A DNA stretch of 64,000 nt, taken from the NCBI GenBank assembly GCA_020632445.1, contig JACKFN010000005.1:30786-94785 (forward strand), in the 5' to 3' direction. The position numbers and the translations under genes are program-made. Numbering within the stretch: position 1 is the stretch's first letter; the number at the start of each line of letters is the position of its first letter. The DNA is from Candidatus Nomurabacteria bacterium. GTDB lineage: Bacteria; Patescibacteriota; Patescibacteriia; Magasanikbacterales; UBA922. Below the pieces are notes generated by a model. The model worked only from the letters and a program-made list of their open reading frames with translations, was not told the DNA's origin and did not search any database. Shown here piece after piece: positions 4,289-40,812 of this stretch.

Positions 4289-4700
4289 AACCAATGGTTA
4301 AAAATACTATTGGCGTGAGAGTGGCGTTATTATATCTAAGCTTAGCCACATTGTCAAGCCCCTACTTAGAATCTCTTCTTGGCAGAAGGTGATACCCCTC
4401 CGGCCTTCACGCCCTTCTTCTCGGTGAAAATCACACAGATAACACCGAGCAGGGCCATCAGGCCCCAAAAAAAGCCATGAATAATCGATAAACTCACTGG
4501 GTCATGAGCTTTCCCCCGTGGCCAGTAACGACGTAATATAGCATCGTTTTATTGATAGTTTTTCCCTAAAAATCGAATTTTTCTGTAAAAAAAGCAAATT
4601 TTATCCACATATCCACTTTTTTATACACAGTTTTGGCTAAATATTGAACTTTCCTAACAAAAAAACACTCAAATGAGTGTTTTTGAAAGTTCTTTCCCCC

Positions 4701-5825
4701 CTATTGCCGTATAGGCATAACAAGGTACAAATAATCTTCTTTCCCCTTTCCGCGCATCATACAAGGCGCATCATGAGAATTCATCAAAAATTCCATTTCT
4801 TCACTATCAAGATTTGCCAATCCATCGAGGACGTATCTAAAGTTGAGCAAAATGGCGTTTTCCTCTCCGGCCACTTGCGCTTCCACTTGTGAAGAGTGCT
4901 CACCGGTTTGGCTGCTCATTGAAGCCACCATAACTGCAGACTCAGAAGGACTGAGCGTAAAATTCACTCCGTTTATACCCGTGCTGCTAAACAAACTGGC
5001 CGCTTTGATTTTCTTATGAAACGCATCCACACTCACAATCGCATGTGTTTTAAACTCTGTGGGGATTATTTGTGCATAATCTGGATAACTCCCAGATACC
5101 AGCCGACTCGTTATCTCAAAACTTTCATACCGTACCCCAATCTGATTGTCACTCACCCACATTCGCACTTGTGTTTCCTTTCCAGAATTTTTCACGCTTG
5201 AAAGGAGCCTTGCAACTTCCATTACTGTTTTGATTGGCAAAATACATTGGCGCACATCACTCCCCTGTGCCACCGAAACTTTCTTTTCCGCAAGACGGTA
5301 TGAATCAGTCGCAGCCATTACGAGTCCTTCATACCTGTCGGTAAAAAATCCACAGTACACCCCAGAAAGCTCTGGTCGAATGTCATTTTTGGCGGCGGCA
5401 ATTCCCACTCGTGTTAGGGCATCTGCAAATACGTCTACTAAAATGGTATATACAGAACCTTCTTCTGCTTCTGGAATAATTGGATAATCCTCTGAAGGGC
5501 TTCCCTTAATTTTGGTTGATGAGTCATTACAAGAAACCACCAATTCATTTTCCTCAACGGATATTTCAATTTGTTCATCAGATATGAGTGAAACAAAATC
5601 GTAAAGCGTTTTTGCCGGCACGGTAAATTTTCCCGCTATTTCCACCTTGGCACGCAGACTGCACTTTACCACCATTTCAAGATTGGTACTCACAAACTCT
5701 ACTCTAGATTCTGTTGCGTCAATCAAAACATTACTCAGTATTGGAAGATTGGACTGTTTACCAGCAAGTGGGGCAACTAAATTAAGTGCTCCTACAAGAT
5801 TTTCTTTCGTACAAACAAATTTCAT
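4701..5825 (-). CDS. dnaN: DNA polymerase III subunit beta (sliding clamp)
   Basis: 374 aa, MKFVCTKENLVGALNLVAPLAGKQSNLPILSNVLIDATESRVEFVSTNLEM..., three-domain clamp pattern; sits immediately downstream of dnaA as in most bacteria. Confidence 0.95.
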   Translation of the reverse strand: MKFVCTKENLVGALNLVAPLAGKQSNLPILSNVLIDATESRVEFVSTNLEMVVKCSLRAKVEIAGKFTVPAKTLYDFVSLISDEQIEISVEENELVVSCNDSSTKIKGSPSEDYPIIPEAEEGSVYTILVDVFADALTRVGIAAAKNDIRPELSGVYCGFFTDRYEGLVMAATDSYRLAEKKVSVAQGSDVRQCILPIKTVMEVARLLSSVKNSGKETQVRMWVSDNQIGVRYESFEITSRLVSGSYPDYAQIIPTEFKTHAIVSVDAFHKKIKAASLFSSTGINGVNFTLSPSESAVMVASMSSQTGEHSSQVEAQVAGEENAILLNFRYVLDGLANLDSEEMEFLMNSHDAPCMMRGKGKEDYLYLVMPIRQ

Positions 5826-6127: not shown

Positions 6128-7498
6128 CTATCCGTACAGCTTCTGTCGTATTAATTCAATTTCCTGCTTGAGGTTTGGGTCTTCTTTTACGTTCTTTCGG
6201 ATTTTTGTGTCGGCATGCATTGCCGTGGTGTGGTCTCGGCCGCCCAGCTCTTGTCCAATAGCCGGAAAGGACATCCCAAGCTCTTCTCTCATCATATACA
6301 TAATGACCTGACGAGGGTGCGCGAGTCGTTTTTCACGACTTTTTCCAACCACTTCGTCAACTGAAATGTCATAAAATCCTGTAATGAGCGAAACCAGCTC
6401 TTTGGGTGTTTTTTTCCTGTTCGCGGTTTGTTCCTGGAAGCTTTCGAGGATGGGGCGTACGGTTTCCGGGGTAGGTGTGAGGTTTTTGAGCTGGTGAAAA
6501 GCAATGACTTTGTTGAGTGCACCTTCGAGCTCACGAATGTTGCTTTGAATCGTTGTAGCAATGAGCTGGAGGAGTTCCTGTCTTATGGGGAATCGTTTTT
6601 CTTGCGCTTTGGATTCAAGAATGGCAACCCTTGTTTCTAAGTCAGGTGCCATGATATCGGCAATCATTCCCCACTCAAACCGACTACGGAGCCTGTCTTC
6701 AAGTGAAGGAATGGCTTTTGGTGGGCGATCACTGGTAAGGACCACCTGTTTTCCTTGTTGGTGGAGTTCGTTGAATGTATGAAAAAACTCTTCTTGGGTT
6801 TGTTCCTTTCCTCCAATGAATTGAATGTCGTCAATAAGCAGGAGATCGACGGTTCGGTACCGTTCTTTAAATTCACTTACCCGACCCTCTTTTACGGTAG
6901 CCACAAACTCATTGGTAAATTTTTCTGAGCTCACATAGAGAATTTTTGCCTGCGGGTTGTCAACGAGCATCTTGTGAGCAATGGCCTGGATAAGGTGCGT
7001 TTTTCCAAGTCCTACATCTCCATATATAAAGAGTGGATTGTATGCCTCACCAGGCCTGTTGGCAACGGCTTGCGCAGCGGCGTGCGCGAGTTCGTTTCCT
7101 TTTCCAACAATAAAAGTTTCAAAGGTGTATTTTGGGTTGAGCCCAAATGCGGACATCAGCGTTTTTGTTGGTTTTGAAAAGATAGGCTCTTCGAGCGTCG
7201 AAACCGTTTGCGTCGTTTGTGGGTGGCACTCCATTTCTTCGATGTGCTTGACGTTTTCTACTTTGTATTCTACTCGTTTAACGGGTTTTTGGGTGATGCG
7301 TTCGAGTGTCTTGGTGATATCTGAATGATATTTTTTCTCGAGCCAGCTTTTGGTAAATGCATTTGGAACACAAATGACAACATGGCCATCTTGAAAGTGG
7401 CCTATTCCCGTGTTTCGAAACCAGGTCGTAAAGTTGGCCTTTGAGAGTTTGAGCTCAAAATCGGCCAGAACGGCCTGCCATATTTCGTAATTTGTCAT
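6128..7498 (-). CDS. dnaA: Chromosomal replication initiator protein DnaA
   Basis: Start set at the internal ATG (MTNYEIWQAVL...). AAA+ Walker A GDVGLGKTHL, sensor/box motifs and the C-terminal DNA-binding domain (LAHPRQVIMYMMREELGMSFPAIGQELGGRDHTTAMHA) are present. The track ORF extends 198 codons upstream through GC-rich DNA without DnaA similarity. Confidence 0.95.
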   Translation of the reverse strand: MTNYEIWQAVLADFELKLSKANFTTWFRNTGIGHFQDGHVVICVPNAFTKSWLEKKYHSDITKTLERITQKPVKRVEYKVENVKHIEEMECHPQTTQTVSTLEEPIFSKPTKTLMSAFGLNPKYTFETFIVGKGNELAHAAAQAVANRPGEAYNPLFIYGDVGLGKTHLIQAIAHKMLVDNPQAKILYVSSEKFTNEFVATVKEGRVSEFKERYRTVDLLLIDDIQFIGGKEQTQEEFFHTFNELHQQGKQVVLTSDRPPKAIPSLEDRLRSRFEWGMIADIMAPDLETRVAILESKAQEKRFPIRQELLQLIATTIQSNIRELEGALNKVIAFHQLKNLTPTPETVRPILESFQEQTANRKKTPKELVSLITGFYDISVDEVVGKSREKRLAHPRQVIMYMMREELGMSFPAIGQELGGRDHTTAMHADTKIRKNVKEDPNLKQEIELIRQKLYG

Positions 7499-7599
7499 AG
7501 TGGGGAAAATTAGGGAAAACAGAGGAAACTTCCCTCTGTAAGTGCATTGTAACATAATTATACACAAGAAAAAAACGCTGAGTATAGCGAAATGTGTAA

Positions 7600-7642
7600 C
7601 ACCTGTGGATAGACTGTGGATAATGTGGATAACTTTGAAAAC
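7600..7642. promoter_or_regulatory. Three tandem DnaA boxes upstream of dnaA (autoregulation/origin-associated)
   Basis: CCTGTGGATAGACTGTGGATAATGTGGATAAC holds TGTGGATAG plus two perfect TGTGGATAA (complement of TTATCCACA) about 105 bp upstream of the dnaA start. Confidence 0.7.
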
Positions 7643-8000
7643 AAAGAAAAACTTTCTTGGCTGAGGGTTGCAAAATTTTGGACTTTTTTGTAAGATGCAC
7701 TGGTCTGGATTCATTTCCCCCAGACGAGCGAGGAACCCATGGCTGGAAAAGGAACAGGGGGCGTGAAGTCCCGTGGTGGGCACCGGACCCGTGCGGCCAA
7801 GCGTCGGTCGCAGCGCAAGCTGAAGGCGCGACGGCGGGGCGAGACCACTCCGGATGCGCCGAGGCCTTCGACGACGCGCAGGTGCTGGTTGTGCGGTCAC
7901 AGGTCGCCCAAGAATCTTCCTCGGTGCGAGAGCTGCAAGACGTTCTTGGGCGCTGCGGTGTAGTTCACTGCAAAGTTTCAACACTCCCACACCACCATAT

Positions 8001-8062
8001 CCCACCTTCAAAATACCAAAAAACACCAACGCTATGGTGTTTTTTGGTATTTTGAAGGTGGG
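8001..8062. repeat. Perfect 28-bp inverted repeat with a 6-nt loop (CCCACCTTCAAAATACCAAAAAACACCA-acgcta-TGGTGTTTTTTGGTATTTTGAAGGTGGG)
   Basis: Read directly; arms are exact reverse complements. The right arm ends in TTGAAGGTGGG, an 11-mer that recurs at 37869 and 40800. Confidence 0.9.
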
Positions 8063-8064
8063 AA

Positions 8065-8538
8065 TTAATAGGCGACAAAGCCGCAGCGACACATGTGATG
8101 CATTGCTGCATCAATGTCAGTCCCCCGCATGGTGTTGGTACGCCTGCAGGTGGCGAGCGGGCACTGCCAACGCCTGGGTGGTAGCTTGCGCAGTGGGTGG
8201 TGAATTCGGCATCTGGCGCAGTAGAAGCATGCGGGCTGGTTTATTTTTCCGCAGCTTGGACAGTGCCAGTTCTGACTGAACTTAATGTGGATGGGTACGA
8301 CTTCCGCTGAACGGAAGATTTCTGGAGGTACAGGCCTGGTTACAGTGCAGCCGTTTCCTTGGCACACTTCGTTTTCCGATCTGTTGAACCACGACCTTCC
8401 GATATGGCAGTGGCTGCAGCTGCAAATCCAGTGCTTTCCGTCGGTGGTCCAGTAAGTGTGCTCAGTGCACAGATGATCATCTGCTCTTGGTACCATGGTG
8501 CGCCACTTCCCGGTTGGTGTTTCTTGTATTGTAGGCAT
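8065..8538 (-). CDS. Hypothetical Cys/His/Trp-rich protein (possible zinc-binding) encoded in the GC-rich island
   Basis: 157 aa from the internal ATG (MPTIQETPTGKWRT...). Multiple CxxC/CxC pairs (WICSCSHCH, HCPSCG, CFYCARC). The TAA stop is immediately followed by CCCACCTTCAA. Frame choice is uncertain because GC-rich DNA keeps other frames open. Confidence 0.3.
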   Translation of the reverse strand: MPTIQETPTGKWRTMVPRADDHLCTEHTYWTTDGKHWICSCSHCHIGRSWFNRSENEVCQGNGCTVTRPVPPEIFRSAEVVPIHIKFSQNWHCPSCGKINQPACFYCARCRIHHPLRKLPPRRWQCPLATCRRTNTMRGTDIDAAMHHMCRCGFVAY

Positions 8539-8589
8539 TTTGAGGAGTTTGTCAATGTGCTTCTTGAGGAGTTTTTGTCTCTGCGAGTG

Positions 8590-8635
8590 GAAACAAAAAA
8601 TCAGTGTATCTGCACTGATTTTTTTTGTTTTGGGT
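8590..8635. terminator. Bidirectional intrinsic terminator hairpin
   Basis: AAACAAAAAATCAGTG-tatc-tgCACTGATTTTTTTTGTTTT: 12-bp stem flanked by A and T runs on either side. Confidence 0.55.
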
Positions 8636-8642
8636 ATGCGAG

Positions 8643-9440
8643 CTACGACCACCCCTCAAGTTTTTCTGCAAAGTGAAAAAGACCGTCAAACATGGCACAC
8701 ATAAATGCTACAATTCCACTGTGTCTAAGCGTGATAACCATAGAAGTTTCTGGTAGGAGAAAGGAAATGCGGTCGCCGTAAATCAAAGCGAGTTCGTTGA
8801 TTGGGATAATAGATTCGGGGAGTGTGCGCAAATCCCAAATGCGTTTTTCAAAGGTGCGGTTCACCTCAGGTGACTGCAAAAATTTTTGTTTTGGTACGGC
8901 AAGAGATTCTTTTGTGAAGATTCCATGTGTGATAATCTCCCTTTTTACTACACGGTCAAAGAAGATGTTCCATTGGTTTGGTGTGAGAAGATCGAGCTCG
9001 TCAATAAGCCCCTTTTTGCCCTCGAGGACACGAAACATAGAGCCCTTTGGAAGCAGAGAGATTTTTTCGTATACTGAAAAGTACCCTTTTTTTGACTCAA
9101 CTACCTCAAATTCGGGTCGTTCACTGGTGACCTTTTGAAGTGACTCAAGTTCCGGTACAAGCAACTTAAGGTCGAGGGTCAGTTTGGTGAGATCTGTTGC
9201 CAGCTGTGCGGGCGGCTTAGCGTTAAAGTGCTGAATTTTTCCTCGCGGAGACTGAAAGAGGAGACCCTTTTCCTGCAGGTTTTTGATGTGAAAATAAGCT
9301 GCAGTTCTGGTCATTTTTACTTCTTTTGCAATTTCAGAGGTGCTGGGATTTTCCAGTGAGAGCACCGCCAGGTAGATGTCGACTTCCTGTTTGGAAAGAG
9401 AAAAGTGTTTGAGGACAGAGTAGATATTGGAGATTTCCAT
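8643..9440 (-). CDS. TrmB-like winged-helix transcriptional regulator (paralogue 1 of 7)
   Basis: Start at the internal ATG (MEISNIYSVLKHFSLSKQEVDIYLAVLSLENPSTSEIAKEVKMTRTAAYFHIKNLQEKGLL), an N-terminal TrmB-type HTH, plus a roughly 150-aa C-terminal domain ending in the family-shared hydrophobic-x-x-LW motif (FHFAEKLEGW). Confidence 0.6.
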   Translation of the reverse strand: MEISNIYSVLKHFSLSKQEVDIYLAVLSLENPSTSEIAKEVKMTRTAAYFHIKNLQEKGLLFQSPRGKIQHFNAKPPAQLATDLTKLTLDLKLLVPELESLQKVTSERPEFEVVESKKGYFSVYEKISLLPKGSMFRVLEGKKGLIDELDLLTPNQWNIFFDRVVKREIITHGIFTKESLAVPKQKFLQSPEVNRTFEKRIWDLRTLPESIIPINELALIYGDRISFLLPETSMVITLRHSGIVAFMCAMFDGLFHFAEKLEGWS

Positions 9441-9568
9441 AGGTTTCTTTTTTACCGAGTGTATCACAACAAGTGGTTTTGTCAAATATTTTTTTCACCA
9501 CAAAGTGTTGACATAATACATAAAAAAGGGTAAAGTTACTTGAATTGTTAAATATAATTTTCAATTGC

Positions 9569-10645
9569 ATGAAAAAAGCAATCTATGCGCTGTGTGCTGT
9601 GGCGCTCATCACCCTTGCCGGGTGTGGAAAAGCAGAACAATCGTCCATGGCTGAGCAAGGACCAATAAAAATTGGTTTTATCGCACCAATATCCGGTGAC
9701 CTTGCCAGCCTTGGAAGTGACGCCTTGGTATCAGCACAGATCGCGGTCGATGAGGTCAACCAAGCTGGTGGGGTGGATGGAAGACCTATCGAGCTCGTTG
9801 TAGAAGATGGAAAATGTAGTGCCAAAGATGCACCACAGGCGGCTAGCAAGTTGATGAATGTGGACAATGTGCAGGTAATTATGGCCATGTGTTCACCAGA
9901 AGTGGTTGCCTCGTCTGGAATGGCAAATCAGCAAAAGCGAGTACTTATTTCGTCGTGTGCCTCGGCTCCAAACGTAACGGATGCAGGAGACTATGTTTTT
10001 CGTACGTATCCTTCGGATAGTTTCCAAGGGAAGTTTGCAGCGCAGCACGCGTATAATACACTTGGAAAACGTAAAGCCGCGATTTTGTCTGTTCAAAATG
10101 ACTGGGGAGTTGGACTTCGTGATGTGTTTGCTCAGACGTTTGAAGCGCTTGGAGGTGACGTTGTGGTCATCCAGGAGCATACGCAAGATTCTCGAGATAT
10201 GCGTTCTCAGATTTCCAAGATAAAAGAGGCAAATCCAGACATCATCTATTTTCCATCATTTACAGAGCCGAGTTTGGTTGGACTTAAACAAATCAGGGAT
10301 TTGGAAGTAGATGTGGAAATACTTGGTGGTGATGCATGGAGCGATGCAAAACTCCAAGAGAGTTCATATGCTCAAGGGGCACAATATGTACAACCTCTTT
10401 CAAACTACAGTGAGTCGTGGAAGGAAAAAATGTTGGCGCGAGGTGCTGGTGCAACTGTTTGCGCTCCGTCAGCCTACGACAATGTAAAAATCATTGCCGA
10501 TATAATTGGAAGTGTTGGCGAAGATGGTGAAAAAATCAAAAATGCGCTTTATGATGTCAAAGGATATGCCGGCGTGGCAGGAGATATTACCTTTGATGAG
10601 AATGGGGATATTACCCAGGCTCAGTATGAGGTGGTAGAACTCTAA
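9569..10645 (+). CDS. LivJ/LivK-family (type I periplasmic binding protein) substrate-binding lipoprotein, probably amino-acid binding; no cognate permease or ATPase adjacent
   Basis: MKKAIYALCAVALITLAGCG lipobox signal, then IKIGFIAPISGDLASLGSDALVSAQIAVDEVNQAGGVDGRPIELVVEDGKC..., the hallmark N-terminal lobe of branched-chain amino-acid binding proteins. Confidence 0.75.
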   Translation: MKKAIYALCAVALITLAGCGKAEQSSMAEQGPIKIGFIAPISGDLASLGSDALVSAQIAVDEVNQAGGVDGRPIELVVEDGKCSAKDAPQAASKLMNVDNVQVIMAMCSPEVVASSGMANQQKRVLISSCASAPNVTDAGDYVFRTYPSDSFQGKFAAQHAYNTLGKRKAAILSVQNDWGVGLRDVFAQTFEALGGDVVVIQEHTQDSRDMRSQISKIKEANPDIIYFPSFTEPSLVGLKQIRDLEVDVEILGGDAWSDAKLQESSYAQGAQYVQPLSNYSESWKEKMLARGAGATVCAPSAYDNVKIIADIIGSVGEDGEKIKNALYDVKGYAGVAGDITFDENGDITQAQYEVVEL

Positions 10646-10696: not shown

Positions 10697-11443
10697 TTAC
10701 GTTGGTACATCATCAGGCTCAGGTAGCAAATCCCAAAGCATTTCAAACGTTGCGCGAAAAACATCTACCATTGCCGGGATCTGGATGACCACAGCGAGCG
10801 AGGAAAGCTTTGGACTGACCACCATCACTTTATCATCATAGATATCCATGGTTGATTTAAAGGTATAGCCTTCGGGCGTGTATTTCCATGTTCGACAAAA
10901 GCTTGGATCCGTTGGGTTATTGTATTTTGAATCAATACTTAAGATGAGTTTGGTGTGTACTTTCTTTTGCCCGCGGCGTTTTCGAAATTCTACAAACCAA
11001 TCCGTATCAAGTTGTTCCCAATAAACGGCACTCCCTATATCGTAGTATGTTTTGCCTGCGTATTCATCAAGAATGTTTTCATAAAATCTTTTGAGCTCTG
11101 CGAGCGTCTCTATGTATTGCAGCCCAAAGGGGGTTTGCGAGGATCCTTGAAGAGACTGGAGCATTGGCACGATGCTCTCAAAAGCTTCAATCTTTTTTTC
11201 TTGTTGACGTATGACATTTGCGGGTTTTTGCGGATAAAAGAGTTTTACATTGTTTTTGAAATACGTGGTAGCAAATCCTTTTTGAGAAAGTGACTTGAGG
11301 ATTGGGTAGACGGTCGTGCGTTTTACGCCCATGCTGCTGGCCACTTTGCTGGCAGGGGCCCCACCCAAAGAAAGTAGAGTAAGGTAGGCATCTACCTCCC
11401 CGTCAGAAAGACCAAGTTTTTTGATAATGTCGTGGTTTTTCAT
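10697..11443 (-). CDS. TrmB-like winged-helix transcriptional regulator (paralogue 2)
   Basis: MKNHDIIKKLGLSDGEVDAYLTLLSLGGAPASKVASSMGVKRTTVYPILKSLSQKGF...; C-terminus FRATFEMLWDLL. Confidence 0.6.
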   Translation of the reverse strand: MKNHDIIKKLGLSDGEVDAYLTLLSLGGAPASKVASSMGVKRTTVYPILKSLSQKGFATTYFKNNVKLFYPQKPANVIRQQEKKIEAFESIVPMLQSLQGSSQTPFGLQYIETLAELKRFYENILDEYAGKTYYDIGSAVYWEQLDTDWFVEFRKRRGQKKVHTKLILSIDSKYNNPTDPSFCRTWKYTPEGYTFKSTMDIYDDKVMVVSPKLSSLAVVIQIPAMVDVFRATFEMLWDLLPEPDDVPT

Positions 11444-11598: not shown

Positions 11599-12729
11599 AT
11601 GAAAAGGTATATTCTTTTTCCCGCCCTGCTGCTCGCGTTTGCCGTGTGTTTTTCTGGTTGTGACAAGCCGGCTGTACCAGAGACATCTGAAAGCATTCGG
11701 ATTGGATTTATTGGGCCGATCACCGGTCCTGCAGCCAAGTATGGGGCCGATAAGGCAGCGCTTTTGGCACTTGAAGAGATTAATGCCGCTGGCGGAGTTA
11801 ATGGGCAAAAGCTTGAGTTTATCATGGAAGATGGAAGGTGTGAGGCCAAGGATGCACTCGATGCGATAAACAAACTTATCAATGTTGACAACGTTCAAGT
11901 GGTGCTTGGTGGACACTGCAGTCCTGAGACCGTTGCCATTGCCCCGGTAGCAGAGCAAAACCAGGTACTTTTACTGGCGTCTCTTTCATCGAACCCAGAC
12001 ATTCGCACCATGGGTGATTATGTGTTTCGAACCACGGCAGAAAGTGTGGCACGAGTTCCAAACACTACGCAAGAAATGAGAGAGACCTATAACATTGAGA
12101 AGCTTGCGATTTTGAGTGAGGAGACCAGCTACGCTCGGCCAATCGCCGATGGCATTGCCAAAGGATTTGAAGCCCGCGGTGGAAGTGTGGTGGCTTTTGA
12201 GTCCATCCTCCCAGAAGACAAGGATTTTCGATCACAGCTTCTCAAAGTGAAACAAGAAAATCCAGATGCGATTTATATATCCACCCAAGCACCAGACAAA
12301 GCGATTCTCATCTTACAGCAGATGCAGGAGCTTGGAATGGAAATGCAGATTTTTGGAAACGAAAGTGTTGGAAGCATTCCACTTATTGAGGAGCTTGGAG
12401 AAAGCGCAAATGGAATCCTTTTTGATTCAGCTTTGTATGATAAAACCCAACCAGAGGTGGCGCAGTTTATTGAAAAGTATCAAAGTCGATATGGAAGTGA
12501 GCCACCATACGGGCTTTTGACCGCTGAGTCCTATGATGCCGTATATATCATAGCCCAGGCTATAGACGAGGTTGGCACAGATCCAGAGAAGGTGAGAGAT
12601 TATCTTTATTCCGTTAAGGAGTATCACGGCGCATCTGGAACCTTTGGTTTTGATGAAAACGGTGATGTGAAAAGGAGATTTATTCTCAGTGAGATTCGTG
12701 ACGGTCGGATAGTACAATTGGCTGATTAA
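11599..12729 (+). CDS. LivJ-family substrate-binding lipoprotein (orphan)
   Basis: MKRYILFPALLLAFAVCFSGCD lipobox; IRIGFIGPITGPAAKYGADKAALLALEEINAAGGVNGQKLEFIMEDGRCEAKD... Paralogous to 9569..10645. Confidence 0.75.
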   Translation: MKRYILFPALLLAFAVCFSGCDKPAVPETSESIRIGFIGPITGPAAKYGADKAALLALEEINAAGGVNGQKLEFIMEDGRCEAKDALDAINKLINVDNVQVVLGGHCSPETVAIAPVAEQNQVLLLASLSSNPDIRTMGDYVFRTTAESVARVPNTTQEMRETYNIEKLAILSEETSYARPIADGIAKGFEARGGSVVAFESILPEDKDFRSQLLKVKQENPDAIYISTQAPDKAILILQQMQELGMEMQIFGNESVGSIPLIEELGESANGILFDSALYDKTQPEVAQFIEKYQSRYGSEPPYGLLTAESYDAVYIIAQAIDEVGTDPEKVRDYLYSVKEYHGASGTFGFDENGDVKRRFILSEIRDGRIVQLAD

Positions 12730-16543: not shown

Positions 16544-17302
16544 TTACTCACTCGAGGATTTTTTATTTTTGGATGGAGTACTGGATTTCCAAAGAAACGC
16601 AAAGATGTGTTTGAAGGCGTTTGCGATAGTGTTGTTTTTTATGAGGATGCCCGAAGGGTTTTTCGGGTCAAATGCAAAGATCGCGAGTTTATCATCGTAT
16701 ACATTTATTTCAATCCCCAAATCTTTAAAGAGATCAATAAATTTCATTTCGCGCAGCAAAGCACTTGCCTGAGAAATATCTTTTTTTCCAATGGCACTCT
16801 CTGGAAGAAGACTTTTGACTTTGACACCTTTTTCGATTCTCTTTTTGAAGTAATTGTTTCGCAAGAATTCATCCCCCACTACCTTGTAAGCCTGCTCATA
16901 GTCGGTTAGGGCGTAAATAGTTTTTTCTTTGTTATCTCTCCAGGTGTCGTCATAAAGATTCATAACCCCATCGAGTCCTTCGTAGTATTTTATTTCAGAT
17001 AGCAGTGTTTGAGGGCGTCTTGGCTGCGTGTGGGTCCATTCAATAAATGCCTTCGTTTCTTGTATGGTTTGGTCTTGTTTGCGCTTGGCCCAGGAGGAGA
17101 GTTCTTGGTGTGAGAGTGCTTTGTACACGGTGTGTCCCTCTATTTGTATTTTGCTCACGAGGCCTCTTGAAAGTAATTTTTCAAGTATTGGGTACAGTGA
17201 TGTGCGATTGATGAGAATGATTTTTGAAAGGTCGGAAACAGAAGAGGGACCATTTTGTAGTAGGCCGGAAAGAGTTTTTTTTTCTTTTTCGCTGAGAAGC
17301 AT
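16544..17302 (-). CDS. TrmB-like winged-helix transcriptional regulator (paralogue 3, solo)
   Basis: MLLSEKEKKTLSGLLQNGPSSVSDLSKIILINRTSLYPILEKLLSRGLV...; C-terminal FKHIFAFLWK. Confidence 0.55.
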   Translation of the reverse strand: MLLSEKEKKTLSGLLQNGPSSVSDLSKIILINRTSLYPILEKLLSRGLVSKIQIEGHTVYKALSHQELSSWAKRKQDQTIQETKAFIEWTHTQPRRPQTLLSEIKYYEGLDGVMNLYDDTWRDNKEKTIYALTDYEQAYKVVGDEFLRNNYFKKRIEKGVKVKSLLPESAIGKKDISQASALLREMKFIDLFKDLGIEINVYDDKLAIFAFDPKNPSGILIKNNTIANAFKHIFAFLWKSSTPSKNKKSSSE

Positions 17303-19929: not shown

Positions 19930-19990
19930 ACGATTATTTCCTTTCTACCCTATTATACGCGAAAAGGATTGTTTTGTTACAAGAGAATAA

Positions 19991-20016
19991 AAAACCACCG
20001 TTTTTGGTGGTTTTTT
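19991..20016. terminator. Hairpin plus T-tract immediately 3' of tRNA-Cys
   Basis: AAAACCACCGtttttGGTGGTTTTTTT. Confidence 0.5.
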
Positions 20017-20092
<76 letters not shown>

Positions 20093-20313
20093 TGATGGTG
20101 CAAGCATAGTAACACGGAAAGAGGTTTTTTTCAAGGGAGTGGATAGAGAACAGATTCAGCCGCTTTTCCACTTCATAGAGGGGAACATACCAATGTCATT
20201 TAGAACTGCCTGAAAATTTATCCATAACGCTATTTAGGTGTGGGGTGACTTTCACAAATATATGATGGACTTCATTAGATTTCAACCTCATCTTATGATA
20301 TCATAGACCCACT

Positions 20314-30583: not shown

Positions 30584-31006
30584 TTGCGTCCGAGGGAAAA
30601 CATCATCCGCCGGCAATCATGGGGAGAGGTTGCTGCAAACCTCAGGAGGAGCCGAGTGGATATCCGTGAATGGTTGGTAGTGTTGATGGCTGCGGCCACA
30701 ACGTTTTTGGTCGCCGGTGGAGATTACTACTGGCGTCGAGATCGAAAGGTCATGGCCGCGCTATACAGCGCATTGGGAGTGTTCGCGTCAGCTGTCGTTG
30801 GGATCGGGCAAGCTCGAAACCAGGGACTGCAGATCCTGCCAATGTACATCCTCTTTTTCGCACTGGACATGTTTGTCTTCCTTGCGTTCTGGCGTCGCAT
30901 TGCGCACCGTCATTTCGCATGGATGGAAGCGTGCCGGTGGGGACACCGTAATCACACCCCTCTCGCCTCGGGCGCCCATCTCTCTGGTACCGGACCTGCT
31001 GCCTAA
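30584..31006 (+). CDS. Hypothetical 3-TM membrane protein encoded in a GC-rich island
   Basis: 140-aa ORF with three clear hydrophobic helices (LVVLMAAATTFLVAGG, VMAALYSALGVFASAVVGIG, ILPMYILFFALDMFVFLAFW); about 60% GC against an AT-rich background. Downstream TCCTCCCCACCCTTACTCC overlaps the yidD 3' end. Confidence 0.35.
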   Translation: MRPRENIIRRQSWGEVAANLRRSRVDIREWLVVLMAAATTFLVAGGDYYWRRDRKVMAALYSALGVFASAVVGIGQARNQGLQILPMYILFFALDMFVFLAFWRRIAHRHFAWMEACRWGHRNHTPLASGAHLSGTGPAA

Positions 31007-33387: not shown

Positions 33388-33525
33388 TGTGGATAATACA
33401 TTCTGTTTGTATACACTAGTCTATACAAACAGAATTATTGATGGTTTTCTGGAAAATGTTATCCACAATTTATGGTGTTTTTCCACAGACTTATCCACAT
33501 CTTGTGGAAAATCAGTGGAAATGTG
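33388..33525. promoter_or_regulatory. Ectopic DnaA-box cluster (at least 7 boxes in about 140 bp)
   Basis: TGTGGATAA (33388), TTATCCACA (33449), TTTTCCACA (33480), TTATCCACA (33491), TGTGGAAAA (33503), AGTGGAAAT (33514), TGTGGAAAA (33522); bracketed by two copies of the P1 palindrome. Confidence 0.6.
33401..33434. repeat. P1 palindrome copy 1 (TTCTGTTTGTATACACTAGTCTATACAAACAGAA)
   Basis: 34-bp near-perfect palindrome, one central mismatch. Confidence 0.9.
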
Positions 33526-33536
33526 GAAAATTGACC

Positions 33537-33563
33537 CTGTTTGTATAGACTAGTGTATACAAA
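33537..33563. repeat. P1 palindrome copy 2 (CTGTTTGTATAGACTAGTGTATACAAA)
   Basis: Read directly. Confidence 0.9.
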
Positions 33564-36596: not shown

Positions 36597-36687
36597 ATTT
36601 TGGTTACTTAATTCGTATAATTATAGCTAAAGTTATAAAAAATTGCAATTTTTTATCAATAAGGTATATATTTTACTATATTCATTA

Positions 36688-37833
36688 ATGCAAAATATGA
36701 GGCTAAGATTGATAATTTTGTCCATTGCAGTATTGGCTTTTGTAGGGTGTGGGCAGTCACGTACTGGTGAGATACCGGTAGAGAGTATTTCTGTGGGCGG
36801 TGTATTTGCGCTTACCGGGTTGGGTGCGGCTATTGGTGAGCAGGAGTATATGGGTGCCCAGCTTGCTGTGGAAGAGGTAAATACGGCTGGTGGAATAGAT
36901 GGTAAGCAAGTAAAGTTTGTTGTCGAGGATGTGTCGCTCGACAAGCTTTCTTCCGGACCCAGTGCTGTTCAAAAGCTTGTGAATGTTGATAATGTTGTAG
37001 GAATAGTGGGGCCTACCTGGGACGAGCCTGCTGCGCAAATTCTTCCTATTATTGAAGAAGCGCGTATTCCCATCCTTATGCCAGATCAGACTGTGGATGT
37101 AGAATCTTTGCAGTCATTTTCGTTTGCCTTTTCTACGTGGTATGACAATCGTGTTGGAGTCCGTGAGCTTTTGCGGTATGCTCAGAGTCATGATTTAAAG
37201 CGAATTGCGATCGTGCGATCTGTGGCTGGAGGATTTTGGCAATTTACCAGGGATGAATTTGTGATGCGCGCACCCGAATTTGGTGTGGAAGTGGTAGAGG
37301 ATATAGATGTGGGGAACCCACTTGAACTTGATTTTCGCACCGTTCTCATAAAGGTAAAGGAAAAAAGACCAGATGCAATTTTTGCAGTCGTCACCGATTA
37401 TAATGAATGTGCTTTTCTTAAGCAGATGAAGGAACTGGGAATAAATGTTCCACTTTTGTCAACGGAATCTTCTGGGACGGCAGCAGCACTTGGACAGTGT
37501 CCAGACTTAATGGAAAATGTATTTTTCAGTACGCCGCATAAGACCCATCTCTATAAAGATTTTGCACAAAGGTTCAAAGCAAAGTTTGAACATGAGCCAC
37601 AGTTTCCGTCAGTGGCAACTTCATATGATGCTATGAAAATTTTGCTTTCGGTAATAGAAGAAACAGGCTCAACTGATGGCAAAGTGCTGCGTGAAGGGCT
37701 CAAACAGCTCGATGAATATCAGGGAGTGAGTTTTGAGAGTATATATTTTGATGAAATGGGATTTGTGAAAACTCCAGAAGATGCTTTTGAAATGATGACG
37801 GTTCGTGAAGGTGCGTTTGTGAGCGTTCCGTGA
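36688..37833 (+). CDS. LivJ-family substrate-binding lipoprotein (orphan)
   Basis: Start at the internal ATG (MQNMRLRLIILSIAVLAFVGCGQ lipobox); GGVFALTGLGAAIGEQEYMGAQLAVEEVNTAGGIDGKQVKFVVEDV..., a type I PBP fold. Confidence 0.7.
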   Translation: MQNMRLRLIILSIAVLAFVGCGQSRTGEIPVESISVGGVFALTGLGAAIGEQEYMGAQLAVEEVNTAGGIDGKQVKFVVEDVSLDKLSSGPSAVQKLVNVDNVVGIVGPTWDEPAAQILPIIEEARIPILMPDQTVDVESLQSFSFAFSTWYDNRVGVRELLRYAQSHDLKRIAIVRSVAGGFWQFTRDEFVMRAPEFGVEVVEDIDVGNPLELDFRTVLIKVKEKRPDAIFAVVTDYNECAFLKQMKELGINVPLLSTESSGTAAALGQCPDLMENVFFSTPHKTHLYKDFAQRFKAKFEHEPQFPSVATSYDAMKILLSVIEETGSTDGKVLREGLKQLDEYQGVSFESIYFDEMGFVKTPEDAFEMMTVREGAFVSVP

Positions 37834-37842
37834 TAATGCTTT

Positions 37843-37868
37843 TAAACAAAAAAACGGATCTAATCCAT
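37843..37868. terminator. A/T-flanked hairpin terminator directly followed by TTGAAGGTGGGG
   Basis: AAACAAAAAAACGGATCTAATCCATTTTTTTGTTT. Confidence 0.45.
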
Positions 37869-37899
37869 TTTTTTGTTTGGTTGAAGGTGGGGTTCAGGA

Positions 37900-38520
37900 T
37901 CACGCGTACTTAGGTCGATCGCGCAATCTCCGATTCGGTCGGTCATAGTACCACAAAACGACATTGGCGGAAACGAGCAAGCTGTAGGTGGGGTTGACCC
38001 ACATGAACACCGGGTCCTCCCGCCAGAAGAAGTAGAAGGTCCACACGAGTGCACTGATCAGATAGATGATCTGCAGTCGGACATCGACCCTTCCCCTGCC
38101 CTTGAGCCACATCTCGCGAGTTTGTAAATAGGCCGCAAAGATGATCAACGCCATGATGGCTGAAAAGGTCTCACGCTTGTGCACGGTGCTGTACATGAAT
38201 GTCGTTGCCAGCGTACTTAGAGCGACTATTATCCAGTCACGTCTGAGCCACTTCTTGTATTTCCAGAGGCCGACAAGTACGGGGAGTTGGCTGACTACGA
38301 GCACTCCACCGTTGTACAGGATCATCTCCTCCCAGCCACGCCAAACGCCGTAGTCGATCTGCGCTATCGATGCAGCGAGGTAGTAGACAAACCAGGATAC
38401 GGATACCGCTTCAGCACTTTGAGACCTAAAGATCTTGTACGCCTGGAGCGCTGACCCTACGGCTTGCGCGATGGTGAAGATGACGATCCCGACACCGACG
38501 AGCATGAGTTGGTTGAACAT
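37900..38520 (-). CDS. Membrane protein with tandem LAB_N-like (lipid-A-disaccharide-synthase N-terminal-like) repeats, encoded in a GC-rich island
   Basis: 206 aa, about 6 TM; the second repeat holds LQTREMWLKGRGRVDV...FYFFWREDPVFMWVNP, resembling the LAB_N consensus (R..QW..SEK...S..P..FW...RxDPVF). About 58% GC. Stop TAA followed 17 nt later by AACCCCACCTTCAACC. Confidence 0.4.
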   Translation of the reverse strand: MFNQLMLVGVGIVIFTIAQAVGSALQAYKIFRSQSAEAVSVSWFVYYLAASIAQIDYGVWRGWEEMILYNGGVLVVSQLPVLVGLWKYKKWLRRDWIIVALSTLATTFMYSTVHKRETFSAIMALIIFAAYLQTREMWLKGRGRVDVRLQIIYLISALVWTFYFFWREDPVFMWVNPTYSLLVSANVVLWYYDRPNRRLRDRPKYA

Positions 38521-38621
38521 GCTGACCTCCTCGTGTTTAACTCAACCTATCACACAACCACAAAATTGTAAATACTAGGAACCAAAAAACACCTTTCGGT
38601 GTTTTTTGACTACTTGATTGA

Positions 38622-40749: not shown

Positions 40750-40767
40750 AATTTCCAAGAAAAAAAC

Positions 40768-40792: not shown

Positions 40793-40812
40793 TTGAAGAT
40801 TGAAGGTGGGGG

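What the first reader, a model, noticed from the sequence alone, without database searches (positions are those of the whole stretch)
7700..8640. GC-rich island containing a perfect 28-bp palindrome, lodged between the dnaA-upstream DnaA boxes and a regulator gene
Its position right beside the replication-origin region is unusual. It contains a 62-bp element (8001..8062) that is a perfect 28-bp inverted repeat with a 6-nt loop, and its right arm ends in the TTGAAGGTGGG junction motif. Every frame on both strands is open across parts of the island, so gene content is ambiguous. The most plausible ORF, 8065..8538 on the minus strand, is rich in CxxC motifs and Trp.
Basis: seen in the sequence. 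Interest (0 to 1): 0.6.

Follow-up and report, generated by a model that had tools for sequence, protein, structure and literature searches.

The report
Two GC-rich zinc-finger genes sharing a terminator
The GC-rich patch beside the replication origin of this Magasanikbacteria (CPR) genome is two small zinc-finger protein genes facing each other, and the "perfect palindrome" is their shared two-way terminator, lengthened by two mirrored copies of an 11-base tag that follows the stop codon of nearly all GC-rich orphan genes here.

Summary
GC reaches 0.61-0.68 against a window mean of 0.44. The palindrome is slightly larger than reported: 29-bp perfect arms at 8000-8028 and 8035-8063, with a 6-nt loop.

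It is not an IS or MITE end. The island is two convergent transcription units, each with its own sigma70-like promoter:
- Gene A (7739-7963 +, 74 aa) has a basic tail and a C4 zinc ribbon.
- Gene B (8065-8496 -, 143 aa) has three RanBP2/NZF-like zinc fingers.

The inner 13 bp of each arm form the A-tract/stem/T-tract terminator used throughout this genome. The outer 11 bp are inverted copies of CCCACCTTCAA.

That 11-mer occurs four times (0.06 expected). Every copy lies between the stop codon of a GC-rich orphan gene and a terminator. CCCACC is in the 3' flank of 7 of 8 GC-rich genes and 0 of 34 ordinary genes, and variants recur in related species.

A relative with 92% identical DnaA has different GC-rich genes at this spot, and its B homologue is only 35% identical. 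The origin-proximal segment is therefore variable.

The tag's function is unknown. An anti-Shine-Dalgarno-like RNA element and a recombination junction both remain open. Interest is moderate.

The parts
7558..7632 (.). DnaA-box cluster upstream of dnaA (two perfect TTATCCACA boxes and two with one mismatch). It flanks the island and is not part of it.
   Evidence: This block is conserved with L083 and L001; homology with L083 ends at 7682.
7668..7696 (+). Putative sigma70-type promoter of gene A: TTGCAA (7668-7673), 17-nt spacer, TAAGAT (7691-7696). GC-rich sequence begins just downstream, at the presumed transcript start.
   Evidence: Read; the consensus scan did not list it. The -35 part lies in sequence conserved with L083, and the -10 lies beyond the homology breakpoint. 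Inferred, not mapped.
7739..7963 (+). Gene A: a 74-aa protein with an Arg/Lys-rich N-terminal tail and a C-terminal CxxC-x10-CxxC zinc ribbon. It diverges from dnaA. GC 0.67, GC3 0.76.
   Evidence: GAGGAA lies 3 nt before the ATG. Against strain variant L081 there are two synonymous changes and one Arg-to-Lys codon swap. The only Pfam hit is sub-threshold, to the Cas12f/TnpB zinc ribbon (E 0.0014). There is no homologue in the protein database, because public gene calls extend dnaA antisense through it.
7964..8011 (+). 3' UTR of gene A: C-rich and G-poor, with CCCACACCACC (7986-7996) and the motif CCCACCTTCAA (8001-8011).
   Evidence: The L001 gene at the same position has CCCACCACACCACCCCAC before its hairpin.
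8000..8063 (.). Perfect palindrome: 29-nt arms with a 6-nt loop (8029-8034). It is composite: the outer 11 bp of each arm are the motif, then a spacer AATA/TATT (8012-8015 and 8048-8051), then the inner terminator.
   Evidence: It is 100% identical in strain variant L081.
8016..8047 (.). Inner bidirectional intrinsic terminator: CCAAAAAACACCA, loop acgcta, TGGTGTTTTTTGG, followed by a U-rich run in both directions.
   Evidence: Same design as other terminators in the window, for example 38583-38608 (CAAAAAACACC-tttc-GGTGTTTTTTG), 45895-45920 and 19989-20016. The consensus scan did not call it, apparently because the stem extends past the T-tract. Termination is inferred.
8052..8062 (-). Motif copy belonging to gene B. 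It reads CCCACCTTCAA on the minus strand and starts 2 nt after B's TAA stop.
8065..8496 (-). Gene B: a 143-aa protein with three W-x-C-x(2-4)-C-x3-N-...-C-x(1-2)-C modules (RanBP2/NZF-type zinc fingers). GC 0.54, GC3 0.62.
   Evidence: Homologues P0003 and P0004 are 35-36% identical with 32 invariant columns, 13 of them Cys and 4 Trp. The profile hits TAB2, MDM2 and Nup153 zinc fingers in the PDB at E 1e-3 to 1e-2. The AF2 model (pLDDT 68) superposes on NZF/RanBP2 fingers at 0.4-0.6 A over 25-27 residues. Strain comparison gives 6 synonymous and 6 non-synonymous changes, none at an invariant column.
8528..8555 (-). Promoter of gene B: TTGACA (8555-8550), 16-nt spacer, TACAAT (8533-8528).
   Evidence: 11 of 12 consensus positions. 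Conserved in L081.
8595..8624 (.). Terminator of the TrmB-family regulator gene (8643-9485 -). It marks the far edge of B's unit.
37881..37891 (-). Third locus with the exact motif. It lies between the stop of GC-rich orphan gene C (37900-38520 -, 206-aa membrane protein, GC3 0.71) and the terminator at 37844-37878.
   Evidence: C has no homologue other than itself.
40800..40810 (-). Fourth copy of the exact motif. It lies directly after the stop of GC-rich orphan gene D (40813-41040 -, about 75 aa, Cys-rich, GC3 0.64) and before the terminator at 40760-40788.

Best explanation
The island is two separate, convergently transcribed, single-gene units, each with a promoter, a gene and a terminator, in the manner of phage 'morons'. 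They encode small zinc-binding proteins. Gene A has a basic tail and a C4 zinc ribbon. Gene B has three RanBP2/NZF-like zinc fingers.

Both units lie in a fast-changing segment next to the DnaA boxes and dnaA of a Candidatus Magasanikbacteria (CPR) genome.

The 29-bp perfect palindrome is the one bidirectional intrinsic terminator the two genes share. Its inner 13 bp per arm are the A-tract/short-stem/T-tract hairpin typical of this genome. It should stop RNA polymerase coming from either gene, which keeps transcription from running into the convergent partner or, from gene B's side, on towards the origin.

Its outer 11 bp per arm are two inverted copies of CCCACCTTCAA. This is a C-rich, G-poor element that resembles the 16S anti-Shine-Dalgarno sequence. 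It sits just after the stop codon of almost every GC-rich orphan gene in this genome and in relatives. The long perfect arm is therefore a by-product of two 'motif-spacer-half-terminator' modules placed back to back.

Shown: the anatomy, the protein-coding status of B, the motif's association with GC-rich genes, and the variability between relatives.

Inferred: that termination occurs there, and that the motif acts in the mRNA 3' end as a C-rich seed that can pair with G-rich ribosome-binding sites, in cis or as a 3'-UTR-derived fragment. My confidence in that last step alone is about 0.25.
For: Anatomy:
- Promoter matches for both genes.
- Two convergent ORFs whose stops lie 37 nt (A) and 1 nt (B) from the palindrome.
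- The inner hairpin is nearly identical to other terminators in the window.

Coding:
- The B family has invariant Cys, Trp and His positions at 35% overall identity.
- RanBP2/NZF fingers are the best sequence matches and fold matches.
- A has GC3 above GC1, and its strain differences are synonymous or conservative.

Motif:
- 4 exact copies against 0.06 expected, all between the stop of a GC-rich gene and a terminator.
- CCCACC occurs in the 3' flank of 7 of 8 GC-rich genes and 0 of 34 ordinary genes.
- Variants directly follow the stop of the B homologues in L001 (TAA-CCCCACCTTCTTCA) and L083 (TAG-aa-CCCTACCTTCTTCAA), although the proteins are only 35% identical.
- It also follows unrelated GC-rich genes in L083/L091 (two further genes) and in L014, where the 11-mer is exact.

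Composition: GC3 is 0.56-0.76 in island genes against 0.43 +/- 0.08 in ordinary genes.

Variability:
- Homology with a relative whose DnaA is 92% identical breaks at 7682 and resumes at 12794.
- L001 carries a different GC-rich Cys/Arg-rich gene at this position and its B homologue 5 kb away.
- About 9 of 70 Magasanikbacteria loci show a GC peak 470-580 bp upstream of dnaA, with unrelated small ORFs.

Not an assembly artefact: four independent Logan assemblies reproduce the junctions.
Against: - No transcript data exist. The promoters, the terminator and the mRNA ends are all consensus-based, and the terminator scan did not call the palindrome.
- The stem's G+C core is only 5 bp.
- Two independent modules would not be expected to share the same AATA spacer. 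The perfect 29-bp symmetry therefore needs an extra event that I cannot show, such as an inverted duplication or conversion between the arms.
- Gene A has no homologue anywhere, and its similarity to the L001 gene at the same position is not significant.
- Predicted pairing of the motif with the gene's own ribosome-binding site appears with one choice of 5' ends: A, C, D, the L001 and L083 B homologues, and three bases in B. It largely disappears with other 5' ends and is absent for E, F, L014 and L083-X.
- The 16S 3' end of this lineage could not be read.
Confidence: 0.65

Rival explanations
1. The motif is a DNA-level junction. On this view the GC-rich orphan genes are mobile single-gene cassettes that integrate next to host terminators, CCCACCTTCAA is the conserved cassette end or crossover core, and the palindrome arose when two cassettes landed on either side of one terminator.
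For: - The motif lies at the GC/AT composition boundary at every locus.
- The genes are unrelated orphans with foreign-like GC3.
- Their presence differs between close relatives: the L091 gene 3917-4480 is absent from the window, and the B homologue lies at another site in L001.
- Island F is flanked by a 13-nt direct repeat that is half of a terminator (CCTGTTTTTTGGT at 47905 and 48666).
- Island D is flanked by an 11-bp inverted repeat.
- Gene A's 5' edge (TGGACTTTTTTG, 7679-7690) resembles the right half of the terminator (TGGTGTTTTTTG, 8035-8046).
Against: - No integrase, transposase or reverse transcriptase was noticed among the ORFs I read beside the islands. I did not search the whole window for one.
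- The flanking repeats are inconsistent: direct at F, inverted at D, none at C.
- No 5'-end motif is shared. The AT-rich promoters lie outside the GC-rich part, so a cassette would have to find a promoter each time.
- High GC and the motif persist in the B homologues of three species, which fits maintained function better than recent arrival.
- No clean empty-versus-filled site was found.
Confidence: 0.2
2. The palindrome is the terminal or subterminal repeat of a transposable element: a MITE, an IS, or an IS200/IS605-type hairpin with gene A as a TnpB remnant.
For: Gene A's zinc ribbon gives a sub-threshold hit to the Cas12f1/TnpB TNB domain (E 0.0014, 19.2 bits against a 26.3 cut-off). Long perfect inverted repeats are typical of MITEs.
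Against: - The arm is single-copy in the window and absent from viral contigs.
- Only a 6-nt loop lies between the arms, so nothing is bracketed.
- Gene A has 74 aa and no RuvC region.
- There is no target-site duplication around 8000-8063.
- The inner part equals ordinary terminators.
- The region is 100% conserved in a second strain, together with both genes.
Confidence: 0.03
3. The palindrome is an origin-associated structural element, a cruciform or hairpin that takes part in replication initiation or its control, placed beside the DnaA boxes.
For: It lies about 370 bp from the DnaA-box cluster. Its hairpin energy is very favourable. Relatives also have hairpins near this position.
Against: - The hairpins in L001 and L083 differ in sequence and sit at the ends of different genes.
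- The conserved origin block ends at 7682, before gene A.
- The same motif-plus-terminator module occurs 30 kb away, at loci with no origin features.
Confidence: 0.04
4. The island is a structured non-coding RNA locus, and the ORFs are by-products of GC richness.
For: GC-rich islands in AT-rich genomes often mark structured RNAs. All six frames are partly open.
Against: - No Rfam family matches apart from generic hairpin hits.
- The B family shows protein-level conservation with invariant Cys and Trp positions and a recognisable zinc-finger fold.
- GC3 is the highest codon position in A's frame.
- Strain differences in A are synonymous or conservative.
Confidence: 0.03
5. The 11-mer is a DNA uptake sequence like those of Neisseria or Haemophilus, which often sit as inverted pairs in terminators.
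For: It is a 10-12-nt exact motif lying next to terminators, once as an inverted pair, and it is conserved in another species (L014).
Against: Uptake sequences occur about once per kb and throughout core genes. Here there are 4 copies in 64 kb, and all are attached to atypical orphan genes.
Confidence: 0.02

Closest known systems
Bidirectional intrinsic (Rho-independent) terminators between convergent genes
   Same: It has an A-tract, a short stem, a loop, the complementary stem and a T-tract, placed between two convergent stop codons. Many other terminators in the window have the same design.
   Different: The stem continues for a further 16 perfect base pairs, because each gene contributes an inverted copy of a conserved 3' motif and an identical spacer. 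No other terminator in the window exceeds 16 bp.
Phage 'morons': autonomous promoter-gene-terminator units whose base composition differs from their neighbours, as described for lambdoid prophages (from my own knowledge)
   Same: Each unit is a single gene with its own sigma70-like promoter and factor-independent terminator. The composition is atypical (GC3 0.56-0.76 against 0.43). The units sit between conserved genes, and their presence varies between relatives.
   Different: They lie in a bacterial (CPR) chromosome with no prophage context and no viral homologues. They also share a conserved motif just after the stop codon, which morons are not known to have.
C-rich seed regions of small RNAs and 3'-UTR-derived sRNAs, such as RsaE/RoxS, LhrC and CpxQ (from my own knowledge)
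   Same: A C-rich, G-poor stretch complementary to Shine-Dalgarno-like sequences lies immediately upstream of an intrinsic terminator. It is present in several copies per genome.
   Different: There is no evidence that a short RNA is released. The predicted pairing to ribosome-binding sites is not robust, and no trans targets were identified.
RanBP2/NZF-type zinc fingers (Pfam PF00641; TAB2, Trabid, Nup153, ZRANB2, MDM2)
   Same: Gene B and its homologues carry the W-x-C-x2-C-x3-N-x6-C-x2-C spacing. These fingers are its best profile matches and fold matches.
   Different: - All scores are below family thresholds.
- By my reading of the sequence against signatures I recall, the T-F ubiquitin-binding signature and the N-F-x-x-R RNA-binding signature are both absent.
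- The host is a bacterium, and the family is confined to a few Magasanikbacteria.
Integron gene cassettes with attC sites
   Same: They are compact single-gene units with a conserved, partly palindromic element starting right after the stop codon, and the cargo is unrelated from one unit to the next.
   Different: There is no GTTRRRY/RYYYAAC core and no attC architecture, and I saw no integrase among the neighbouring ORFs. The units are scattered rather than arrayed, and each has its own promoter and terminator.

Membership tests
Bidirectional intrinsic terminator | Stem-loop followed by a U-tract on both transcribed strands (A-tract upstream, T-tract downstream) | tested here: met
   CCAAAAAACACCA-acgcta-TGGTGTTTTTTGG, followed by TATTTTG on the plus strand and the same on the minus strand. 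The design matches other terminators in the window. The generic scan did not list it.
Bidirectional intrinsic terminator | Located just downstream of the stop codons of two convergent genes | tested here: met
   A's stop is at 7961-7963 and B's stop is at 8065-8067. The hairpin spans 8000-8063.
Bidirectional intrinsic terminator | Transcripts actually end there | not testable with these tools
   No transcriptome data are available. Term-seq or 3' RACE is needed.
MITE / IS terminal inverted repeats | Multiple copies of the repeat in the genome | tested here: not met
   The 29-nt arm occurs only at 8000-8063 with up to 3 mismatches allowed. There is no exact match in viral contigs. Only 64 kb of the genome could be searched.
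MITE / IS terminal inverted repeats | Repeats bracket an internal segment and are flanked by a target-site duplication | tested here: not met
   The arms are separated only by a 6-nt loop, and no direct repeat flanks 8000-8063.
IS200/IS605 TnpB (gene A as a member or remnant) | RuvC-like nuclease domain together with the C-terminal zinc ribbon, in a protein of about 350-450 aa | tested here: not met
   Gene A has 74 aa. Its only hit is a sub-threshold zinc-ribbon match (PF07282, 19.2 bits against a 26.3 cut-off). NCBIfam and PHROGs give nothing useful.
RanBP2/NZF zinc finger (gene B) | W-x-C-x(2,4)-C-x3-N-x6-C-x2-C spacing | tested here: met
   Finger 2 is WHCPSCGKINQPACFYCARC. The equivalent fingers in P0003 and P0004 match exactly, and the W, C and N columns are invariant.
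RanBP2/NZF zinc finger (gene B) | Score above the Pfam gathering threshold for PF00641 | tested here: not met
   Gene B has no Pfam hit. Homologue P0004 scores 17.7 bits against a 27 cut-off, E 0.0022. A family profile hits PDB RanBP2/NZF fingers at E 1e-3 to 1e-2.
RanBP2/NZF zinc finger (gene B) | Zinc-ribbon fold of two beta-hairpins that superposes on solved fingers | tested here: met
   The Foldseek hits are dominated by Trabid, TAB2, Nup153 and ZRANB2 fingers. TM (target) is mostly 0.6-0.9 and rmsd mostly 0.4-0.6 A over 25-27 residues. E-values are weak because the domain is tiny, and the model's pLDDT is 68.
Integron cassette / attC | attC with R''-L''...L'-R' architecture, a GTTRRRY core, and an intI integrase or cassette array | tested here: not met
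   By reading: the sequences at the motif are TTTGAAGG, GGTTGAAGG and GATTGAAGG, and none fits GTTRRRY. The units are dispersed and carry promoters. No integrase search was run.
DNA uptake sequence | Very high genome-wide density, including within core genes | tested here: not met
   There are 4 copies in 64 kb, all next to GC-rich orphan genes.
3'-UTR C-rich regulatory seed / 3'-UTR-derived sRNA | C-rich single-stranded stretch immediately 5' of a terminator hairpin, complementary to ribosome-binding sites | tested here: inconclusive
   The position and composition fit. Predicted pairing with the gene's own RBS reaches P up to 0.7-0.98 in some transcript models, but it is not robust to the assumed 5' end.
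3'-UTR C-rich regulatory seed / 3'-UTR-derived sRNA | A stable short RNA or a measurable regulatory effect | not testable with these tools
   This needs RNA-seq, a northern blot or reporter assays.

The most novel reading that the evidence does not exclude
Some Magasanikbacteria (CPR) genomes carry a previously undescribed class of autonomous single-gene units. Each is a GC-rich, lineage-specific orphan gene with its own promoter and terminator, many of them encoding Cys/Arg-rich zinc-finger or small membrane proteins. Each is tagged right after the stop codon by a conserved C-rich motif, CCCACC(T/C)TC.., resembling the 16S anti-Shine-Dalgarno sequence.

The motif would be the functional signature of the class. 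It could be a shared post-transcriptional control element or sRNA seed, or the junction of a new cassette-exchange mechanism. The region next to oriC would be a preferred landing or turnover site.
Probability: 0.25. Interest if true: 0.65.

Novelty: new variant of a known kind. Interest (0 to 1): 0.45.

Why it matters
The palindrome itself turns out to be mundane: a two-way terminator. The pattern around it is not.

In a very small, AT-leaning CPR genome there are at least eight compositionally foreign orphan genes in 64 kb. They carry the same short tag after their stop codons, and related species show the same tag on unrelated genes.

- If the tag is an RNA control element, it would be a rare example of a shared 3'-UTR regulon in the Candidate Phyla Radiation, where almost nothing is known about post-transcriptional control.
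- If it is a recombination junction, it would point to a new route by which these reduced genomes gain and swap genes.

There is also a practical point. Public gene calls extend dnaA backwards through gene A and hide it, so this class of small genes is probably under-annotated.

The presence of RanBP2/NZF-like zinc fingers, mostly known from eukaryotes, in a CPR-restricted protein next to the origin is a further curiosity.

Tried and rejected
- **Known RNA families.** The Rfam gathering search over the whole window found only 3 tRNAs. The permissive search of 7400-8800 found only generic hairpin (miRNA-like) hits on the palindrome.
- **Phage or viral origin.** There were no relatives of B or C in IMG/VR or INPHARED. 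PHROGs gave only hits near the cut-off. The palindrome arm is absent from viral contigs.
- **Wider homologues.**
  - The word-index search found only gene B itself and a strain variant.
  - The exhaustive HMMER search added two more lineages and then eukaryote-like multi-RanBP2 proteins.
  - The metagenome scan added two L001-like loci.
  - Gene A gave no hit, and gene C matched only itself.
- **A versus the L001 gene at the same position.** The similarity is not significant at protein level and weak at DNA level.
- **C and G as paralogous membrane proteins.** They show no similarity.
- **Motif pairing with the gene's own ribosome-binding site.** It was attractive with TSS-based transcripts, but a control with fixed 35-nt leaders, including ordinary genes, removed most of the signal. 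I keep it only as a hypothesis.
- **Reading the motif's complement as a real Shine-Dalgarno for an antisense gene.** No usable start codon follows it at 8052, 37881 or 40800.
- **Chi-like or uptake-sequence readings.** Both are rejected on copy number and distribution.
- **Clean empty site.**
  - The site in the window that corresponds to L001's B homologue has a different gene order.
  - The L091 site next to tRNA-Cys is rearranged.
- **The 16S 3' end of this lineage.** No 16S sequence is present in any fetched locus.
- **Literature.** Two full-text searches returned nothing.
Full report
**Setting**

The window carries dnaN (4701-5825, -) and dnaA (6128-7498, -; Pfam DnaA_N, Bac_DnaA and Bac_DnaA_C). 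A DnaA-box cluster lies at 7558-7632, and cumulative GC skew reaches its minimum near 6-6.7 kb.

DnaA's closest relatives among GTDB species representatives are Candidatus Magasanikbacteria (CPR/Patescibacteria); the best, L001, is 80% identical. A Logan contig (L083/L091) is closer, at 92%. NCBI labels the source MAG 'Candidatus Nomurabacteria bacterium'.

Independent assemblies from four sequencing runs reproduce the island and the other motif-bearing junctions (L081, L082, L088-L090). Chimeric assembly is therefore not the explanation.

**Checking the observation**

- GC reaches 0.61 in 300-nt windows and 0.685 in 200-nt windows across 7650-8050. It stays at 0.51-0.57 up to about 8500, against a window mean of 0.44.
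- The inverted repeat has 29-nt arms (8000-8028 and 8035-8063), is perfect, and has a 6-nt loop.
- It is by far the longest perfect inverted repeat in the window; the next has 16-nt arms. It folds far better than shuffled sequence, with z = -9.6 as RNA and z = -13.8 as DNA.
- The 11-mer TTGAAGGTGGG ends the right arm, and its complement starts the left arm. Two further exact copies lie at 37881 and 40800. That is 4 copies against 0.06 expected.

**What the island contains**

The island holds two convergent small genes.

Gene A (7739-7963, +, 74 aa):
- It starts after GAGGAA-ccc-ATG and a TTGCAA-17-TAAGAT promoter-like site.
- The protein has an Arg/Lys-rich tail and a CxxC-x10-CxxC zinc ribbon.
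- GC3 is 0.76.
- Against a roughly 97%-identical strain (L081), its differences are two synonymous changes and one Arg-to-Lys codon replacement.
- It has no database homologue. One reason is that public gene calling extends dnaA antisense through it: L082 has a 632-aa 'DnaA', and the window has the ORF 6128-8092.

- The strongest promoter match in the region (TTGACA-16-TACAAT, 8555..8528, 11 of 12) ends downstream of the 8538 ATG.
- L081 has a 1-nt indel between 8538 and 8496.

An exhaustive HMMER search of 1.84 billion representative proteins found only two other lineages with B-like proteins. These are P0003 (166 aa) and P0004/P0005 (128 and 138 aa), at 34-36% identity. Beyond them come eukaryote-like proteins made of RanBP2-type zinc-finger repeats.

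The four-sequence alignment has 32 invariant columns, including 13 Cys, 4 Trp and 3 Asn. They form three W-x-C-x(2-4)-C-x3-N-...-C-x(1-2)-C modules.

A profile of this alignment hits the RanBP2/NZF fingers of TAB2, TAB3, MDM2, MDM4, YAF2 and Nup153 in the PDB, with E from 1e-3 to about 0.7. An AlphaFold model (pLDDT 68) superposes on Trabid, TAB2, Nup153 and ZRANB2 fingers at 0.4-0.6 A over 25-27 residues.

Pfam's own threshold is not reached. I therefore call B 'RanBP2/NZF-like' rather than a certified member. B is clearly protein-coding, and its strain differences (6 synonymous, 6 non-synonymous) avoid the invariant columns.

**What the palindrome is**

Every other perfect inverted repeat with arms of 10 nt or more in the window is one of two things:
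- an A-tract/short-stem/loop/stem/T-tract hairpin at a gene end, that is, a bidirectional intrinsic terminator; or
- a copy of an unrelated 24-bp palindrome.

The inner 13 bp of each arm here (CCAAAAAACACCA / TGGTGTTTTTTGG) is this kind of terminator. It is nearly identical to the terminators at 38583-38608 and 45895-45920.

It sits 37 nt after A's stop and 1 nt after B's stop, with U-rich sequence following in both directions. The outer 11 bp of each arm are the motif, one copy per gene, separated from the inner terminator by AATA/TATT.

At the RNA level each mRNA would therefore end as stop - (short spacer) - CCCACCUUCAA - AAUA - terminator hairpin. Genes C and D end in the same way. The 29-bp perfect symmetry exists only in the DNA.

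Two independently arisen modules should not share a spacer. Some inverted duplication or arm-to-arm conversion must have made the two sides identical. This is inferred, not shown.

The whole 3'-UTR/palindrome block (7964-8064) is 100% identical in strain L081, while the flanking genes differ.

**The motif is the interesting part**

All four exact copies lie between the stop codon of a GC-rich gene and a terminator. The four genes are unrelated:
- A, a zinc ribbon;
- B, three zinc fingers;
- C (37900-38520 -), a 206-aa membrane protein with weak PQ-loop/MtN3 hits;
- D (40813-41040 -), a Cys-rich protein of about 75 aa.

Variants follow other GC-rich genes in the window:
- E (30584-31006 +): CCCCACCCTTAC;
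- F (47989-48645 -): CCCCACCCGTCAA;
- H (42494-43042 +): CCCACCTCC, followed by a terminator.

An unbiased 6-mer count finds CCCACC in the 70-nt 3' flank of 7 of 8 GC-rich genes and 0 of 34 ordinary genes of 150 aa or more.

The motif travels with the gene across species. B's homologues carry TAA-CCCCACCTTCTTCA in L001 and TAG-aa-CCCTACCTTCTTCAA in L083, although the proteins are only 35% identical.

It also follows unrelated GC-rich genes in relatives:
- L083-X: CCCACCTCCTCA;
- L091 3917-4480: CCCACCTCT;
- L014 6038-6328: the exact 11-mer.

The sense strand is always the C-rich one. The sequence resembles the 16S anti-Shine-Dalgarno core (CACCUCC, from general knowledge). I could not read this lineage's 16S 3' end.

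**Composition and turnover**

Ordinary genes have GC3 of 0.43 +/- 0.08, and island genes have 0.56-0.76. The GC-rich part begins at about the predicted transcript start and ends at the motif. The promoters and terminators are AT-rich like the host.

All the GC-rich genes are orphans within the roughly 1.4 Mb of related loci I held.

Between the window and L083/L091, homology runs through dnaN, dnaA and the DnaA boxes and stops at window 7682, just before gene A's -10 element. It resumes at 12794 in the PBP1A gene.

What lies between differs:
- The window has A, B and two TrmB-regulator/Peripla_BP_6 binding-protein pairs.
- L083 has a PP2C phosphatase, a different GC-rich Cys-rich gene X, and the 35%-identical B homologue, which lies directly upstream of dnaA on the same strand.
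- L001 has another GC-rich basic, Cys-containing gene (9390-9704) at the same position next to the DnaA boxes. Its C-rich tail is similar (CCCACCACACCACCCCAC, against CCCACACCACC...CCCACC for gene A). Its B homologue lies 5 kb away, between two binding-protein genes.

About 9 of 70 Magasanikbacteria loci have a GC peak 470-580 bp upstream of dnaA, with unrelated small ORFs. The island is thus part of a fast-changing origin-proximal segment. It is not a single recent insertion into a conserved intergenic region.

High GC and the motif persist in the B genes of three species. This argues that both are maintained rather than merely left over from recent transfer.

**How it most likely works**

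- Shown: the anatomy, the coding status of B, the motif association and the variability.
- Inferred with fair confidence: the hairpin terminates both genes, which insulates each gene from its convergent partner and shields the adjacent origin and dnaA promoter region from read-through out of gene B.
- Inferred with low confidence (about 0.25): the motif works in the mRNA 3' end as a C-rich seed that pairs with G-rich ribosome-binding sites.

The evidence for that last step is mixed. With transcripts drawn from the predicted promoters, ViennaRNA pairs the motif with:
- the gene's own Shine-Dalgarno sequence in C (P 0.7), A (0.35-0.39) and the B homologues of L001 and L083 (about 0.8);
- three G of B's Shine-Dalgarno sequence (0.98);
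- the codons just after D's AUG (0.9).

The pairing is absent for E, F, L014 and L083-X. A control with fixed 35-nt leaders removes most of it.

The main rival (about 0.2) is a DNA-level role as a cassette junction. In its favour:
- The motif sits at the composition boundary.
- Island F is flanked by a 13-nt direct repeat that is half of a terminator.
- Island D is flanked by an 11-bp inverted repeat.
- Gene content differs between close relatives.

Against it:
- I saw no recombinase among the neighbouring ORFs.
- There is no consistent flank signature.
- The promoters lie outside the GC-rich part.

**Comparison with known systems**

- The palindrome's core meets the sequence definition of a bidirectional intrinsic terminator.
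- It fails the tests for MITE/IS ends: single copy, nothing bracketed, no duplication.
- Gene A fails the test for a TnpB remnant: 74 aa and only a sub-threshold zinc-ribbon hit.
- By my reading, the motif does not fit an integron attC core.
- It does not fit an uptake sequence, because the density is too low and the copies lie only at atypical genes.
- No Rfam family matches, there are no viral relatives, and two literature searches found nothing.
- The closest concept for the gene units is the phage 'moron'. The closest for the motif is the C-rich seed next to a terminator in small RNAs. Both are resemblances only.

**Verdict**

Its mobile-element and insertion reading of the palindrome is not supported.

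The palindrome is an ordinary device, a shared terminator, made conspicuous by a conserved tag. What deserves follow-up is the tag and the class of GC-rich orphan genes it marks.

- Interest: 0.45.
- Novelty: a new variant of a known kind.
- Chance that the tag defines a new regulatory or gene-exchange module in CPR bacteria: about 25%.

Noticed in passing
window 33388-33563; also 45102-45125, 45865-45888, 46237-46260: A 24-bp palindrome, TTTGTATACACTAGTGTATACAAA, occurs five times (0 expected). Two copies (33406 and 33540) bracket a dense DnaA-box cluster at 33388-33530, which has three perfect and three one-mismatch boxes. The copies at 45102 and 46237 also have a DnaA box nearby (45064 and 46210). 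It could be an operator family, a second DnaA-titrating or origin-like site, or a small repeat element.
   Followed up: partly
window 30584-31006(+), 42494-43042(+), 47989-48645(-), 62460-63032(-): Four further GC-rich orphan genes (E, H, F, G) have GC3 of 0.56-0.70 against a host value of 0.43. E, F and H carry CCCACC-type motifs in their 3' UTRs before a terminator. G has only CACACCCTC. F has weak helix-turn-helix hits, and E and G look like membrane proteins.
   Followed up: partly
window 40793-40803 / 41094-41104 and 47905-47917 / 48666-48678: Island D is bracketed by a perfect 11-bp inverted repeat (TTGAAGATTGA / TCAATCTTCAA). Island F is bracketed by a perfect 13-nt direct repeat (CCTGTTTTTTGGT), which is half of a terminator. 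These may be insertion scars or chance matches in low-complexity sequence.
   Followed up: partly
window 8595-8624 versus L081 (strain variant): The terminator of the TrmB-family gene has the same stem in both strains, but the 6-nt loop is reverse-complemented (TATCTG on the window's plus strand, equal to CAGATA in the orientation of the L081 locus, where L081 reads TATCTG). This is a hairpin-loop inversion between strains.
   Followed up: no
window 6128-8092(-); L082 6794-8692: The dnaA reading frame stays open for about 600 nt upstream of the true start (7498), running antisense through gene A. The public gene call is a 632-aa 'DnaA', which masks gene A. This is an annotation artefact typical of GC-rich inserts.
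   Followed up: yes
window 8643-9485(-), 10697-11443(-), 16544-17302(-), 39970-40749(+), with 9545-10645(+), 11599-12729(+), 36643-37833(+), 38622-39722(-): There are repeated paralogous pairs of a TrmB-family regulator and a Peripla_BP_6 solute-binding protein. Several GC-rich islands, and L001's B homologue, lie between members of these pairs. The close relative L083 lacks the two pairs next to dnaA. The 16544-17302 ORF was judged TrmB-like by eye only and was not run against Pfam.
   Followed up: no
L091 13606-13950 (between dnaN and rpsT); window counterpart about 4387-4601: In the close relative, a strong promoter (TTGACA-17-TAAAGT) drives a GC-rich segment of about 300 nt (GC 0.57-0.60). 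The GC3 of its ORF is only 0.44, so it does not look coding and may be a non-coding RNA. The window's counterpart does not align and is not GC-rich.
   Followed up: no
window 20011-20134 versus L091 4567-4689: tRNA-Cys is inverted relative to its conserved flanks between the two relatives. L091 has a GC-rich 187-aa orphan gene with CCCACCTCT plus a terminator beside it. The window lacks that gene and instead has 3.5 kb of extra genes on the other side of the tRNA.
   Followed up: partly
whole window: NCBI names the source MAG 'Candidatus Nomurabacteria bacterium' (locus tag H6758_03700 for gene C). DnaA and the gene order place it among Candidatus Magasanikbacteria.
   Followed up: no
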